Position numbers and translations under genes: made by a program
Part shown: positions 5,277 to 41,522 of the stretch, in pieces
How positions within the stretch are numbered: position 1 is the stretch's first letter
How the letters are laid out: each line of letters starts with the position of its first letter
The notes under the pieces: generated by a model
Told to the model about the DNA's origin: nothing
Database searches by the model: none
Seen by the model: the letters and a program-made list of their open reading frames with translations, nothing else
DNA from: the human T2T-CHM13v2.0 reference genome, Homo sapiens
DNA length: 64,000 nt
Assembly: GCF_009914755.1 (NCBI RefSeq)
Contig: NC_060942.1
Direction: 5' to 3' (one strand)

Positions 5277-5665
<389 letters not shown>

Positions 5666-9226: not shown

Positions 9227-9632
<406 letters not shown>

Positions 9633-26174: not shown

Positions 26175-26336
26175 CGAGACGGAGTTTCACTCTTAAGCCC
26201 AGGCTGCAGTGAAGTGGCCCGCGGTCTCGGCTCACTGCAATCTCCGCCCCCTGAGTTCAAGCGAGTCTCCTGCCTCAGCCTCTGGAGTAGCTGGGATTAC
26301 AGGCACCAGCCACCACACCCGACTAATTTTTGTATT
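26175..26336 (-). mobile_element. Alu right-arm fragment (AluS)
   Basis: gagacggagtttcactctt...ctaatttttgtatt; no left arm and no poly(T). Confidence 0.88.
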
Positions 26337-29220: not shown

Positions 29221-29708
<488 letters not shown>

Positions 29709-32940: not shown

Positions 32941-33616
32941 ATCTTTCCTGAAGAATGTTCATATTCATGCCTCTAGTTTCCCAAGTTGGATAAAGTTCAT
33001 GTCTATTATAGCAATGCTTCATTTTACTTTCCACTTCTGTTTTCATTTCTTCTTAATTTCTGTCATCTGTGTGTTTTTCTTTCTTGCTTGCTAGCTCAGC
33101 CATCATTTTTAGGTCATGAGTGGGTTTTCAAGTTATTATACTCCGATATTTTCATAAAACTACAGTTTCTCTTCTTCCAATTTGCTGTTTGTTATGAATC
33201 TAAATTATTTCCCTACTATTGTTTCCTTTGTGTCAAATTTGTGACCCTTTCTAATTTTTTTATCAATCTTAAATTCTATATGCTTACTGATTACCTTCTT
33301 GAAAGTGAGAGAAAGGCCAAGGAATAATTGAGCCCGTATAAACTTTGGCCTCAGGCAGACATAGGTCCACAAACAGTTCTACCATTCGTAAGTGTTTGAC
33401 TTTGGATTTCTTAGGTAAATGCAAAGCAATACAGGACTAAACCATTAACTCCACATACCAATTTTTAACTATCATTTCTGACTTTTTCCTTTCCAAATCA
33501 TAGAAGTTGAGTTTTCTAGTCGGCCGTCTTTTATTCCTCTAGACTAACCAATGAAATTTCAGTTCTTAGCCTTGAAACTATGTCTTTCTAATTGCTAGTT
33601 TAAAAGAAAAGCTACA

Positions 33617-33968
<352 letters not shown>

Positions 33969-36479: not shown

Positions 36480-38785
<2,306 letters not shown>

Positions 38786-38789
38786 TATG

Positions 38790-40648
38790 TAGTCATGTGT
38801 TGCTTAAGAATATGTTCTGAGAAATGCATTAGGCAATTTCGTTGTTGTGTCATCACAGGGAACTCCGTAAGTACTTAAAGCTTATAGAACAAGAATATAA
38901 AGAAAGAAAATGCTTTTGTACAATTTTATGATGTGTTTGTGTTTTAAGTGAAGTATTGTTACAAGAGTCAAAAAGTTAAACAAAAAGTTAAAAAGTTCTT
39001 AAAGTAAAAAAAATCGTAGATTAGGTTAATTTATTACTGAAGAAAGAATTAAATAAAAATTAATTTGATATGGCCTATATGTACAGCATCTATAAAATCA
39101 AGAGTAATGTGCACTAATGTCCTAGACCCTTACGTCCATTCACCTCTCACTAATACAACCACAACGGCTTTCAGTCCCACAAGCTCCATTCATGGTAGGT
39201 GCCTATAAAGGTTCACCATTTTATATCTGTTATACCATATTTTTAGTGTACATATGTGTTGGATACATATGTGTTAGATACATAAGTGTTAGATGTTTAC
39301 ATATGTGTTGGATACACAAATACTTACTATTGTGTTAAATTACTTACAGCATTCAGTACAGTAACATGCTGTACAGGTCTGTAGCCTAGGAGCAATAGGT
39401 CTGTAAGTACTTACAGAATTCCCTGTGATATAGTGAGATAGACTATCACTGTATCGTAGTGATATAGCCTACTGCACATCTAGGCTATATGGTATGACCA
39501 ATTATTGCTCCTAGGCTGCAAACCTGTACAGCATGTTACTGTACTGAATGCTGTAAGTAATTTAACACAATAGTATTTGTGTATCCAACACATATGTAAA
39601 CATCTAACACATATGTATCCAACACATATGTAAACATCTAACACATATGTATCCAACACATATGTACACTAAAAATATGGTATAATAGATATAAAATGGT
39701 GAACCTTTATAGGCACCTACCATGGATGGAGCTTGCGGGACTGAAAGCCGTCGTGGTTGTATTAGTGAGTGGTGAATGGATGTAAAGGTCTAGGACGTTA
39801 GTGCACATTACTCTTGACTTTATAGACGCTGTACATACAGGCCATATCAAATTAATTTTTGTTTAATTTTCTTTCTTCAGTAATAAATTAACCTAATCTA
39901 TGATTTTTTTTACTTTAAGAACTTTTTAACTTTTTGTTTAACTTTTTGACTCTTGTAATAATATTTCGCTTAAAACACAAACACATCATAAAACTGTACA
40001 AAAGCATTTTCTTTCTTTATATTCTTGTTCTATAAGCTTTTTACTATTTAAAAAATGTTTTACTGTTTTTTATTTTTTAAATGTTTTCGTTAAAAATGAA
40101 GACACAAACATGCATTAGCCTGTAGAATAGTAGGCAAGGTCAGGATCATCAATCTCACTGTCTTCCACCTCCACATGTTGTTCCACTGAAAGGTCTTTAG
40201 GGGCAGTAACAGGCATGGAGTGGTCAGCTCCTGTGAGAACAATGTTGTCTTCTTGAATATCTCCTGAAGGACTTGCCTGAGGCTGTTTTATAGTCAACTC
40301 TAAAAAATATATCTAAGTAGAAGAAATATACTCTAAAATAACAATAAAAAGTATAGTACGGTAAATACATACACCAGTCATTTCTCATTATTATTATGCA
40401 CTGTGCGTAATTATATGTATTATGCTTTTACACCACTGGCAGCACAGTAGGTTTATTTACACTAGCATCACTATCCCCACAAATGTGTGAAGAACCTATT
40501 GCATCTATCGAACTACAACATTAAGACAGCTATGACCTATGACGTCACTAGGCAACCAGAATTTTTCACCTCCATTATAATTTTATGGGATCGCTGTTGT
40601 ATTTGGGGTCTGTCATTGACCAAAATGTTGCTATGCAGTGGATAACGG
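38790..40648 (+). mobile_element. Tigger3b/MER7B (Golem) non-autonomous DNA transposon carrying an internal inverted duplication
   Basis: Termini (c)agtcatgtgttgcttaa and tgttgctatgcagtggataacgg-TA; internal tagcctactgcacatctaggctatat and cctgtacagcatgttactgtactgaat. Length minus the duplicated part is about 1.3 kb. Confidence 0.88.
38877..40040. repeat. Long inverted repeat: arms 38877-39397 and 39503-40040, 105-bp spacer
   Basis: Manual alignment of the left-arm reverse complement to the right arm gives about 19 substitutions plus a few indels. Confidence 0.97.
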
Positions 40649-41522
40649 TATTTTTGTGAAATCATATTTTTCTAATAATTTGTTAATATTTTATAATGCA
40701 ACTGTTATTTTATTGAAATCTGTTAGCAATTTATTTTCTAACTTCGGTTGACTTTTTTTTTAAGTAAGGAATCATATAGTGTATAAATACTGACAATGTC
40801 AATTATTTCTTCCTAAACTGTACACCTGCATTTCTTTTTCTAGTCTTACTGGGTTACACAGGACTTTCAGTCAAATATTACAAAGCAATATTAAAGATCA
40901 TCCTTGTCTTTTTCTTCTGAATTTAGTAAGTAAACTCAAAGTAATTAACATGACCTGATAATCACAAAAAATGTTTCAGTATTAAATATGAGGCTTCCTA
41001 TAAGTTTTGATAGCTATCATAGATGAGATTCAGGAAGTTGCCTTCTACTGTAGTATAATACGAGGAATTTTGGTGTTGTTGATGTACATAGTATTCGTCC
41101 AGTTTTTGACTATGAAATTGTCATAAACAGTCTTTTAATATCGTTCATTCTACTTTTGTATATATCTAAAATTAGAATTGTTGCTATACAGTAGGATATG
41201 CTTAACTTTAATAAATATTGCCAAAACATTTTGCAAAGCAATTGTACCAATATACACTCTCACCTGTAATATATATGTGCTTCAGTTCCTCCAATTGTCA
41301 TCAACACTTGTTACTCCTCTTATTTTTAGAGATATTAGTAACTGTATAGTCATAATTTATCTTGGTATTAATTTGCATTTCACCAATTACTAAGGCTGTT
41401 GAGCAACTTTTCATATAACTGGGGGCATAACCATTTTACGAAGTGTATATTTAAATTGTTTGCCTACTATAATTTACTTTTTTTTCTTCCGGATTTAAGT
41501 ATCTTTGTTTTGTTATGAATAT

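What the first reader, a model, noticed from the sequence alone, without database searches (positions are those of the whole stretch)
38877..40040. ~520-bp, ~96%-identical inverted duplication built inside a Tigger3b fossil
Seen: 38877-39397 is the reverse complement of 39503-40040 across a 105-bp spacer. I counted about 19 substitutions by hand, all but one transitions, plus small indels. The arms are internal Tigger3 sequence, not TIRs. Both carry the same aacacatatgt tandem expansion in different unit arrangements. Established: Tigger3 copies are far more diverged from consensus than 4%, and long, closely spaced inverted repeats are depleted and unstable in mammalian genomes. Inference: the duplication is much younger than the transposon, or is homogenised by arm-to-arm conversion. 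It could extrude a hairpin/cruciform or, if transcribed, form a ~500-bp non-Alu dsRNA stem (ADAR/MDA5/Dicer substrate).
Basis: partly seen in the sequence, partly recalled or inferred. Interest (0 to 1): 0.8.

Follow-up and report, generated by a model that had tools for sequence, protein, structure and literature searches.

The report
Late inverted duplication inside a Tigger-like transposon fossil
A dead 1.2-kb DNA transposon on human chromosome 18 later copied about 520 bp of itself backwards next to the original; this looks like an ordinary, probably neutral replication or repair accident, not a functional element.

Summary
Window 38877-39397 is the reverse complement of 39503-40040 across a 105-bp spacer. 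The gapped alignment has 501 matches, 20 substitutions (18 transitions) and indels of 2, 19, 4 and 3 bp, giving 96% identity without gaps.

Both arms lie in one ~1.86-kb copy (38790-40648) of a ~1.2-kb non-autonomous, Tigger-like element. The best other genomic copies are only 69-78% identical. Against 18 of those copies, the arms share 74 derived states and differ at 20 polarisable sites. Two independent insertions are therefore excluded.

Best reading: a locus-specific inverted duplication that arose after most of the element's decay, roughly 12-30 My ago by recalled primate rates. It probably arose by template switching or templated break repair. The 60-nt centre cannot be aligned to the family.

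I found no conversion tracts, no Rfam match and no strand bias in G·U-compatible mismatches. Concerted evolution still cannot be excluded without ape and monkey orthologues.

A 105-bp spacer at 96% identity lies outside the range reported as unstable, so the repeat's persistence is not surprising. Transcription was not testable.

Verdict: a real but ordinary instance of a known kind.

The parts
38790..38876 (+). 5' terminal piece of the transposon fossil, forward orientation (element positions 1 to about 100). It begins 'tagtcatg' where the canonical terminus is 'cagtcatg'. Its last 25 nt (38852-38876) are segment A.
   Evidence: A profile built from 16 canonical copies aligns 38781-38860 to profile positions 26-117, E = 9.9e-14. 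The terminus was read. Flanking dinucleotides are TG (38788-38789) and TA (40649-40650), where TA/TA would be expected.
38877..39397 (-). Left arm: the reverse-complement copy of element positions about 142-624. This is the inserted inverted duplicate.
   Evidence: pairs with 39503-40040. (BLAST to canonical copy L010: 38877-39399 matches reference 629-147 on the opposite strand). (canonical homology ends inward at 39399, profile position 176).
38876..38877 (.). Outer junction: the forward 5' piece is joined to the far end of the inverted copy. At most 1-3 nt of microhomology, inside an AAGCTT site.
   Evidence: Read. Segment A matches its inverted copy up to 38876. The arm homology with 40040 starts at 38877.
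39398..39502 (.). Spacer of 105 bp. It holds A' (39401-39429, the inverted copy of 38852-38880) and an 18-bp perfect palindrome (39400-39417). It also holds 60 nt (39400-39459) that cannot be aligned to the family. From 39460 the canonical sequence resumes in forward orientation.
   Evidence: pair I7; palindrome; spacer self-complementarity score reached by 0.3% of 1000 shuffles; right side canonical from 39460, profile position 138; A/A' 26 of 29; further central symmetry not significant, p = 0.07.
39503..40040 (+). Right arm: the original, forward-oriented internal sequence, continuous with the rest of the element.
   Evidence: In one search the stretch 39459-40635 is one collinear match to canonical positions 108-1202.
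40041..40648 (+). Single-copy 3' remainder of the element, up to the degenerate 3' terminus.
   Evidence: the only match at 100% is itself, and the next best of the 39 other candidates scored is 77%. There is no second copy near the locus. Searches give the 3' end.
39249..39316 (-). Tandem array (15/19-nt units) in the left arm. It has one 19-bp unit fewer than the array in the right arm.
39580..39666 (+). Tandem array in the right arm (34-nt period, 2.6 perfect copies). The expansion is specific to this copy and predates the duplication.
   Evidence: (family D1). In one search the other copies carry a single or double 'tctaaaca'-like unit instead.

Best explanation
One old, non-autonomous Tigger-like (Tc1/mariner-type) transposon copy sat at this site and decayed for most of its history. 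During that time it acquired a local tandem expansion and a small palindromic insertion near its 5' end. Much later, a single local rearrangement inserted a reverse-complement copy of its own positions about 75-624. The insertion lies between the 5' terminal ~100 bp and the rest of the element.

The layout is: forward 1-100, then reverse 624-142 plus reverse ~100-75, then a short filler, then forward ~104 to the end. This is what a switch-and-return replication error produces. The nascent strand copies itself or the opposite strand backwards for about 550 nt and then returns. That is the inverted-repeat-creating type of the four-point template-switch model, at a larger scale. Templated synthesis during break repair would give the same layout.

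The centre was either complex from the start or was remodelled afterwards. One arm lacks ~46 bp, and there is a ~25-nt filler with small local copies. That left a 105-bp asymmetric spacer.

Since then the arms have diverged independently by about 2% each. By recalled primate substitution rates, that places the event roughly 12-30 My ago, around the ape or catarrhine ancestor. The structure is most likely neutral and stable because of its spacer and mismatches.

Shown: the anatomy, the shared derived history, the lack of a second copy elsewhere, and the absence of conversion tracts. Inferred: the mechanism, the date and the neutrality.
For: 1. The arms are 96.2% identical. The best other genomic copies are 69-78% identical (40 of 4795 candidates scored).
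2. Against 18 other copies, 468 of 517 arm-to-arm columns could be polarised. Of these, 374 are unchanged, 74 are derived and shared by both arms, and 20 are private to one arm. By those counts about 12% of this copy's divergence postdates the duplication.
3. Both arms carry the same copy-specific tandem array. Segment A and A' carry the same ~10-nt palindrome-forming insertion, which I saw in none of the 18 copies aligned (read by eye).
4. The right arm is collinear with the whole canonical element. The left arm is the extra piece: the element is 1859 bp against ~1210 bp.
5. The 3' half is single-copy.
6. Identical runs between differences fit random placement: P(max run >= 57) = 0.88 and P(variance) = 0.71. 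Four indels remain unhomogenised.
7. The excess of differences in 39725-39868 tracks the region's higher shared-derived density and GC content (Fisher p = 0.21).
8. A second family copy on C17 (L021) has an independent 167-nt inverted partial duplication at 94.6% identity with a different layout. Late local inverted duplications therefore recur.
9. Literature passages read: template switching creates inverted repeats in one step in primates (PMC5453318, PMC10710096). Palindromes undergo secondary rearrangements that lengthen the spacer (PMC10766186). Spacers of 42-52 bp or more abolish inverted-repeat effects in mammalian cells (PMC3300023, PMC7999016).
Against: - Shared derived states are also what continuous arm-to-arm gene conversion would produce. 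Points 1-3 therefore exclude two insertions but do not by themselves date the duplication.
- No primate orthologue could be examined, so the date rests on recalled rates and on 21 differences. The Poisson 95% range is 13-32 differences, or 1.3-3.1% per arm.
- The centre is not explained by one clean switch-and-return. Sixty nt cannot be aligned to the family, one arm lacks ~46 bp, and the suggested residual symmetry is not significant (p = 0.07).
- The outer junction has almost no microhomology (at most 1-3 nt). This fits end joining as well as template switching.
- The transition excess among private differences (18 of 21) exceeds a 2:1 expectation (p = 0.046). It also exceeds the shared-derived set (43 of 74; Fisher p = 0.022). 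This excess is unexplained.
- The published template-switch surveys I read deal with short events. I found no stated precedent of ~550 nt in the passages read.
- The 'majority of 18 copies' is only a proxy for the ancestral sequence. The 18 were the best matches to the arm, so they are biased towards well-preserved copies.
Confidence: 0.65

Rival explanations
1. The inverted repeat is old, formed at or soon after insertion (for example by aberrant transposition or gap repair). Its arms have been kept alike by recurrent arm-to-arm gene conversion, as in the large sex-chromosome palindromes.
For: - Shared derived states (74) and shared indels are expected under concerted evolution as well.
- Arms of 520 bp at 96% identity are long enough for homologous recombination.
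- Private changes lean towards A/T to G/C (11 versus 6). That is the direction expected from GC-biased conversion, though per-site rates are about equal (0.015 versus 0.018).
- A second family copy (L021) also has unexpectedly similar inverted arms.
Against: - No patchiness: run lengths between differences fit random placement.
- Four indels, including a 19-bp repeat unit, remain different between the arms.
- The inverted copy includes copy-specific late features: the tandem array and the palindromic insertion. These are absent from the 18 other copies. The duplicated template was therefore already decayed, unless these features were also spread by conversion.
- The L021 arms are only 167 nt with a ~600-bp spacer, a poor conversion substrate. 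Late duplication explains both loci more simply.
- Arm divergence from other copies (69-78%) equals that of the non-duplicated 3' half (71-77%).
Confidence: 0.2
2. The hairpin is a functional or at least expressed locus. A transcript through it folds into a ~520-bp non-Alu double-stranded RNA that is edited by ADAR, sensed by MDA5 or diced into small RNAs, and selection helps to preserve the pairing.
For: - The + strand folds into an almost continuous stem, minimum free energy -854.7 kcal/mol.
- 18 of 21 arm differences are transitions. In RNA these give G·U or A·C rather than bulkier mismatches.
- Template-switch hairpins are known to seed new miRNA genes (PMC10710096, passages read).
Against: - No annotated transcript overlaps the locus. 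The nearest gene model is a predicted lncRNA about 22 kb upstream (annotation supplied with the finding).
- No Rfam family match. The only hits are E = 0.4-1 matches of the CA/TG-rich tandem array to mir-297 and mir-466, at 21-25 bits against gathering scores of 85-90.
- The transitions that would give G·U on the + strand versus the - strand number 10 versus 8 (counted by hand from the table). There is therefore no strand-specific preservation of pairing.
- Any long inverted repeat folds this way.
Confidence: 0.04
3. The structure is an assembly or sequencing artefact (a fold-back chimera), or it is two independent insertions of the same family in opposite orientation.
For: Fold-back chimeras occur in long-read libraries, and nested or adjacent insertions of one family are common.
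Against: - An artefactual fold-back would give identical arms. These differ at 20-21 sites and four indels.
- Two insertions would differ from each other about as much as from other copies (22-31%). They would not share 74 derived states, a private tandem array and a private insertion.
- Only one set of element termini is present.
Confidence: 0.02

Closest known systems
Template-switch mutations of the four-point model, the type that creates an inverted repeat (Löytynoja & Goldman 2017, PMC5453318; Mönttinen et al. 2023, PMC10710096; passages read)
   Same: A reverse-complement copy of immediately adjacent sequence is inserted in one step, giving a hairpin-capable repeat. The copy is flanked by a short direct re-copy (segment A). 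Small quasi-palindromes lie at the switch region.
   Different: The copied fragment is about 520-550 nt, whereas those surveys target short events. The centre is not clean. The outer junction has almost no microhomology. The ancestral state could not be checked in an outgroup species.
Long inverted repeats of the human genome and the 'recombinogenic' subclass (Lobachev et al. 2000 and Wang & Leung, as summarised in PMC5414712 and PMC7999016; passages read)
   Same: Arms longer than 30 bp at more than 85% identity within 2 kb, located in intergenic DNA, made of repeat-derived sequence.
   Different: It fails the instability criteria quoted there (spacer under 20 bp; arm/spacer ratio above 16). 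Here the spacer is 105 bp and the ratio is about 5. It is not a pair of separate Alu insertions but an in-place duplication of one element.
Palindrome revision by centre-proximal rearrangement in mammalian cells (Cunningham et al. 2003 'center-break', seen only as a citation in PMC3300023 and PMC10766186; spacer-lengthening secondary rearrangements in PMC10766186)
   Same: The disorder is concentrated at the axis: a ~46-bp loss in one arm, a ~25-nt filler and 60 nt that cannot be aligned. The outer ~520 bp of each arm carry only small indels.
   Different: It is not shown that the repeat was ever a perfect palindrome. The centre may have been complex from the start.
Gene-conversion-maintained palindromes of the sex chromosomes (reviewed in PMC7999016, passage read)
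   Same: Arms are much more alike than their age as sequence would suggest.
   Different: Arms are 0.5 kb rather than 8 kb to megabases. There are no genes, no conversion tracts were detected and indels are not homogenised.
Inverted duplications of transposons that act as hairpin 'killer' loci in plants (Mu killer, recalled; Ac/Ds case in bioRxiv 10.1101/2020.01.07.897926, abstract seen in the search listing)
   Same: A partial inverted duplication of a DNA transposon that could give a hairpin RNA homologous to the family.
   Different: The family was long dead when this duplication arose: copies are 22-31% diverged from this one. There is nothing left to silence, and no transcription is known here.

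Membership tests
   No repeat library is on hand. The name Tigger3b exists in Repbase's human list (PMC5753468, table read). My own recollection of the Tigger3 terminus agrees, but that is recall, not a test.
   The first look gave 4795 candidates. All 40 scored matched, on many chromosomes, at 69-78% identity. Full copy L010 starts 'cagtcatgc' and ends with its complement 'gcatgact'. The window copy starts 'tagtcatg' at 38790 and has a degenerate 3' end at 40648.
   The window copy is flanked by TG and TA. In the alignment, TA directly precedes the terminus in 6 copies (L003, L006, L007, L009, L013, L020; read by eye). The others are decayed.
Template-switch (switch-and-return) inverted duplication | The new segment is the reverse complement of adjacent sequence, and the layout can be written as forward / reverse / forward with two junctions | tested here: met
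   forward 1-~100; reverse 624-142 plus reverse ~100-75; forward ~104 to the end.
Template-switch (switch-and-return) inverted duplication | The ancestral state without the repeat is seen in an outgroup lineage | not testable with these tools
   No primate genome other than the window's own is held (one search states that the genome has no relatives here).
Template-switch (switch-and-return) inverted duplication | One event explains all the changes at the junctions | tested here: inconclusive
   The outer junction is clean (38876|38877). The inner junction has 60 nt that cannot be aligned and a 46-bp loss in one arm. Either extra switches or later remodelling is needed.
Unstable ('recombinogenic') long inverted repeat | Arm identity above 85% | tested here: met
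   96.2%.
Unstable ('recombinogenic') long inverted repeat | Spacer under about 20 bp, or arm/spacer ratio above 16 (criteria quoted in PMC5414712) | tested here: not met
   The spacer is 105 bp and the ratio is about 5.
Conversion-maintained palindrome | Mosaic of long identical tracts and diverged patches; indels homogenised | tested here: not met
   Run-length test P = 0.88 and 0.71. Four indels differ between the arms.
Conversion-maintained palindrome | Arms within a species closer than orthologous arms between species | not testable with these tools
   No other primate genome is available.
miRNA or hairpin-RNA gene | Match to a described RNA family | tested here: not met
   Rfam 15 at E <= 1 gives only sub-threshold hits to the tandem array: 21-25 bits against gathering scores of 85-90.
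miRNA or hairpin-RNA gene | Transcription and processing of the hairpin | not testable with these tools
   No expression, small-RNA or editing data are on hand. No annotated transcript overlaps the locus (annotation supplied with the finding).

The most novel reading that the evidence does not exclude
The repeat is a sub-kilobase palindrome whose arms are kept alike by ongoing arm-to-arm gene conversion. It is transcribed into a ~520-bp non-Alu double-stranded RNA that feeds ADAR, MDA5 or Dicer. That would be a small autosomal counterpart of the large sex-chromosome palindromes, with an RNA output.
Probability: 0.04. Interest if true: 0.65.

Novelty: new member of a known kind. Interest (0 to 1): 0.25.

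Why it matters
In itself it matters little. It is an intergenic, apparently silent structural fossil.

It is useful as a clean, datable example showing that switch-and-return errors or templated repair can make inverted duplications of hundreds of base pairs in the primate germ line. That is larger than the short events usually catalogued. It also shows that such a repeat can persist for what is probably more than 10 My once its centre is asymmetric.

The independent second case in another copy of the same family (C17, L021) hints that this class of mutation is under-counted.

If ape and monkey orthologues showed concerted evolution, or RNA data showed expression, the locus would become more interesting. 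It would then be a model for small-palindrome conversion or a source of long non-Alu dsRNA.

Tried and rejected
- **Rfam scan of 38000-41500.** Nothing near threshold.
- **First polarisation count.** The figure of 111 shared-derived states was wrong, because columns with too few outgroup bases were counted. One search replaces it with 74.
- **Placing the central pieces with MAFFT or one reference copy.** The result was noisy. A profile of 16 copies gave firm limits but left 39400-39459 unassigned. For that profile, L011 and L016 were dropped because their 5' ends did not align.
- **A simple palindrome with symmetry running through the spacer to a centre near 39450.** The residual symmetry is not significant (p = 0.07). 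I kept it only as a possibility.
- **A longer AAGCTT microhomology at the outer junction.** Rejected on closer reading: only 1-3 nt are shared.
- **Conversion-tract test and regional clustering test.** Both negative.
- **Strand-biased G·U test for an RNA stem.** 10 versus 8, no bias (counted by hand).
- **My window-wide inverted-repeat scan.** It dropped the target itself, because BLAST joined both arms into one self-complementary hit. It still served as a background count.
- **Literature gaps.** The NF1 intron palindrome paper (PMC1310899) is not held. One paper reading failed on term syntax and was not repeated. I could not extract the fragment-length distributions of published template-switch events (one search found no passage).
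- **Prior description of this locus.** No paper describing it, or an inverted duplication inside a Tigger element, appeared in the listings. These searches were by keyword, not by coordinate.
- **ORF scan of the element.** Only short frames. No Pfam search was run.
Full report
**Observation**

The repeat finder splits it into collinear pieces that together span 38877-39397 and 39503-40040. A gapped alignment of the left arm with the reverse complement of the right arm has 549 columns. Of these, 501 match, 20 are substitutions (18 transitions) and 28 are gap columns in indels of 2, 19, 4 and 3 bp. That is 96.2% identity without gaps and 91% with them.

Within the multiple alignment used later, the arms differ at 21 of 517 columns: 18 transitions and 3 transversions, K2P 0.042. 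TRF confirms the tandem array in both arms. The left array is 39249-39316 and the right array is 39580-39666, the latter with 2.6 perfect 34-nt units. The arms differ there by one 19-bp unit.

In the whole 3.1-Gb genome the only matches above 78% are the query itself and the other arm, E = 3e-224.

**What the arms are part of**

The window's genome could be searched. The first look gave 4795 candidates. Forty were scored, and copies on many chromosomes match at 69-78%.

One of them, L010, is a complete ~1.2-kb copy. It starts 'cagtcatgc' and ends with the complement 'gcatgact'. Using it and a profile of 16 copies, the window element runs from 38790 ('tagtcatg') to about 40648, which is 1859 bp.

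- The stretch 39459-40635 is one collinear match to canonical positions 108-1202. The right arm is therefore simply the original sequence.
- The stretch 38877-39399 matches canonical 629-147 on the opposite strand. It is the extra piece.
- The 5' terminal piece 38781-38860 aligns forward to profile positions 26-117; the element itself starts at profile position 35.
- The 3' half (40041-40648) is single-copy.

I could not test the name 'Tigger3b', because no repeat library is available. The termini and the TA that precedes six other copies (read by eye) fit a Tc1/mariner-type element. Repbase does list a Tigger3b (PMC5753468, table read).

**Junctions and centre**

The outer junction is at 38876|38877. 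There the forward 5' piece abuts the far end of the inverted copy with at most 1-3 nt of shared sequence.

The last 25-29 nt of the 5' piece (segment A, 38852-38880) recur inverted at 39401-39429, with 26 of 29 matching. The inverted copy therefore originally reached back to about element position 75.

Both copies of A carry a ~10-nt insertion that I saw in none of the 18 other copies aligned. In the inner copy it forms an 18-bp perfect palindrome at 39400-39417.

Canonical homology stops at 39399 on the left (profile position 176) and resumes at 39460 on the right (profile position 138). The 60 nt between cannot be aligned to the family. The left arm lacks about 46 bp that the right side has.

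A residual symmetry around 39450 is suggestive only (p = 0.07). The present 105-bp spacer is thus a patchwork. It holds an inverted copy of A, a short filler with small local repeats, and the forward sequence that the left arm has lost.

**One lineage or two**

I polarised the arm-to-arm columns against 18 other copies. Of 517 columns, 468 had at least nine outgroup bases. Among those, 374 equal the majority, 74 are derived and shared by both arms, and 20 differ between the arms. An earlier tally of 111 shared states wrongly included poorly covered columns and should be disregarded.

The arms lie 17.5% and 18.4% from the majority. The 18 copies, which were chosen as best matches and so are biased towards well-preserved ones, lie 7.5-14.3% from it.

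Together with the shared private array and the shared private insertion, this excludes two independent insertions and excludes a family-wide layout. An assembly fold-back would give identical arms, which these are not.

**Young duplication or concerted evolution**

Shared derived states cannot separate these two readings, so I looked for signs of conversion.

- The runs of identity between differences fit random placement: P(max run >= 57) = 0.88 and P(variance) = 0.71.
- Four indels remain different between the arms.
- Twelve of the differences fall in 39725-39868. That stretch is also the most GC-rich and has a high shared-derived density. Relative to shared changes the excess is not significant (Fisher p = 0.21).
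- Private changes are 11 A/T to G/C against 6 G/C to A/T, but per-site rates are about equal.
- Divergence of the arms from other copies (69-78%) equals that of the single-copy 3' half (71-77%).

These results favour independent decay since one event. Only orthologues can settle the matter.

**Dating**

With about 2.0% change per arm (Poisson 95% range 1.3-3.1%) and primate lineage rates that I recall, not measured here, the event falls roughly 12-30 My ago. By the counts, about 12% of this copy's divergence postdates the duplication.

**Mechanism**

The layout is forward 1-~100, then reverse 624-142 with reverse ~100-75, then forward ~104 to the end. In the four-point template-switch model, this is the type of event that creates an inverted repeat. 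That type made up 31% of high-confidence human-chimpanzee events (PMC5453318, passages read).

The same process is documented as a one-step source of hairpins in primates (PMC10710096, passages read). Here the copied fragment is about 520-550 nt, well beyond the short events those surveys target. The near-absence of microhomology at the outer junction fits end joining with templated synthesis equally well.

The disordered centre could reflect extra switches at birth. It could also reflect later centre-proximal revision, which is reported to lengthen palindrome spacers (PMC10766186, passage read; the 'center-break' paper was seen only as a citation). I hold the general class of mechanism with moderate confidence and the exact path with low confidence.

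**Stability and function**

The passages I read put this repeat outside the unstable range.

- A 42-bp spacer abolished repeat-induced repair in HeLa cells (PMC3300023).
- 320-bp inverted Alus stalled replication with 0-12-bp spacers but not with a 52-bp spacer (PMC3300023, PMC7999016).
- In yeast, going from a 12-bp to a 100-bp spacer cut recombination 300-fold, and going from 100% to 94% identity cut rearrangements about 15-fold (PMC10164571).
- The quoted criteria for labile repeats are a spacer under 20 bp and an arm/spacer ratio above 16 (PMC5414712). Here the values are 105 bp and about 5.

As RNA the region would fold into an almost continuous stem, -854.7 kcal/mol, as any such repeat would. 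However:

- No annotated transcript overlaps the locus (annotation supplied with the finding).
- Rfam gives only sub-threshold hits to the tandem array.
- Transitions compatible with G·U pairing are split 10 to 8 between the two strands (counted by hand).

The transition excess among private differences (18 of 21; p = 0.046 against 2:1; p = 0.022 against the shared set) remains unexplained.

**Context**

Close inverted repeats of high identity are rare nearby.

- Besides the target, the 64-kb window holds three inverted pairs, all 80-83% identical and 2.7-3.7 kb apart.
- The 18 control loci (about 68 kb) hold two overlapping pairs in one locus (L003), at 85-87% identity and about 3 kb apart.

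Yet one other family copy of the 39 scored, on C17 (L021), has its own 167-nt inverted partial duplication at 94.6% identity. There the inverted piece (canonical 413-581) lies about 180 bp outside the element's 5' end. In the second sample, 0 of 39 other copies showed an opposite-strand neighbour. Ranking by shared words may favour such loci, so 1 in 39 is not a frequency estimate.

**Verdict**

It is best read as a late, local, probably neutral inverted duplication of a decayed transposon, made by a template-switch-type error and no longer in the unstable range. It is a new instance of a known kind.

No paper describing this locus, or an inverted duplication within a Tigger element, appeared in the keyword listings.

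Noticed in passing
L021 (G000:C17:35505500-35509500), arms 1719-1885 and 2483-2644: Another copy of the same transposon family carries an independent inverted partial duplication: 167 nt, 94.6% identical, 597-nt spacer. The inverted piece (canonical 413-581) lies about 180 bp outside the element's 5' end, so the layout differs from the chr18 case.
   Followed up: partly
window 40472-40559: Many family copies match the window element up to 40471 and resume near 40559-40560 with a shorter gap on their side. Others run straight through to about 40650. This suggests two structural variants (subfamilies) of the element's 3' part.
   Followed up: no
window 5317-5611 / 9335-9631; 26197-26336 / 29434-29571; 33602-33932 / 36667-36999: These are the only other inverted pairs of at least 60 bp and at least 80% identity within 5 kb in the window. 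They are 80-83% identical with spacers of 2.7-3.7 kb. Their sizes (~300 bp) suggest pairs of separate SINE insertions; this was not verified.
   Followed up: no
window 40115-40312, minus strand: A 65-codon open frame ending in an acidic stretch. It might be a remnant of the parent transposase's C-terminus, read antisense to the orientation used here. No family search was run.
   Followed up: no
window 39606-39669, minus strand: The CA/TG-rich tandem array gives weak matches to the rodent mir-297 and mir-466 models (E = 0.37 and 0.95; 21-25 bits against gathering scores of 85-90). I take this as a compositional resemblance.
   Followed up: yes
window 39400-39417 versus 38862-38879: The inner copy of segment A is an 18-bp perfect palindrome, while the outer copy is imperfect (only 10 bp perfect, 38868-38877). 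One of the differing positions coincides with the outer junction. Another would be a quasi-palindrome 'perfecting' change of the kind that template switching makes.
   Followed up: partly
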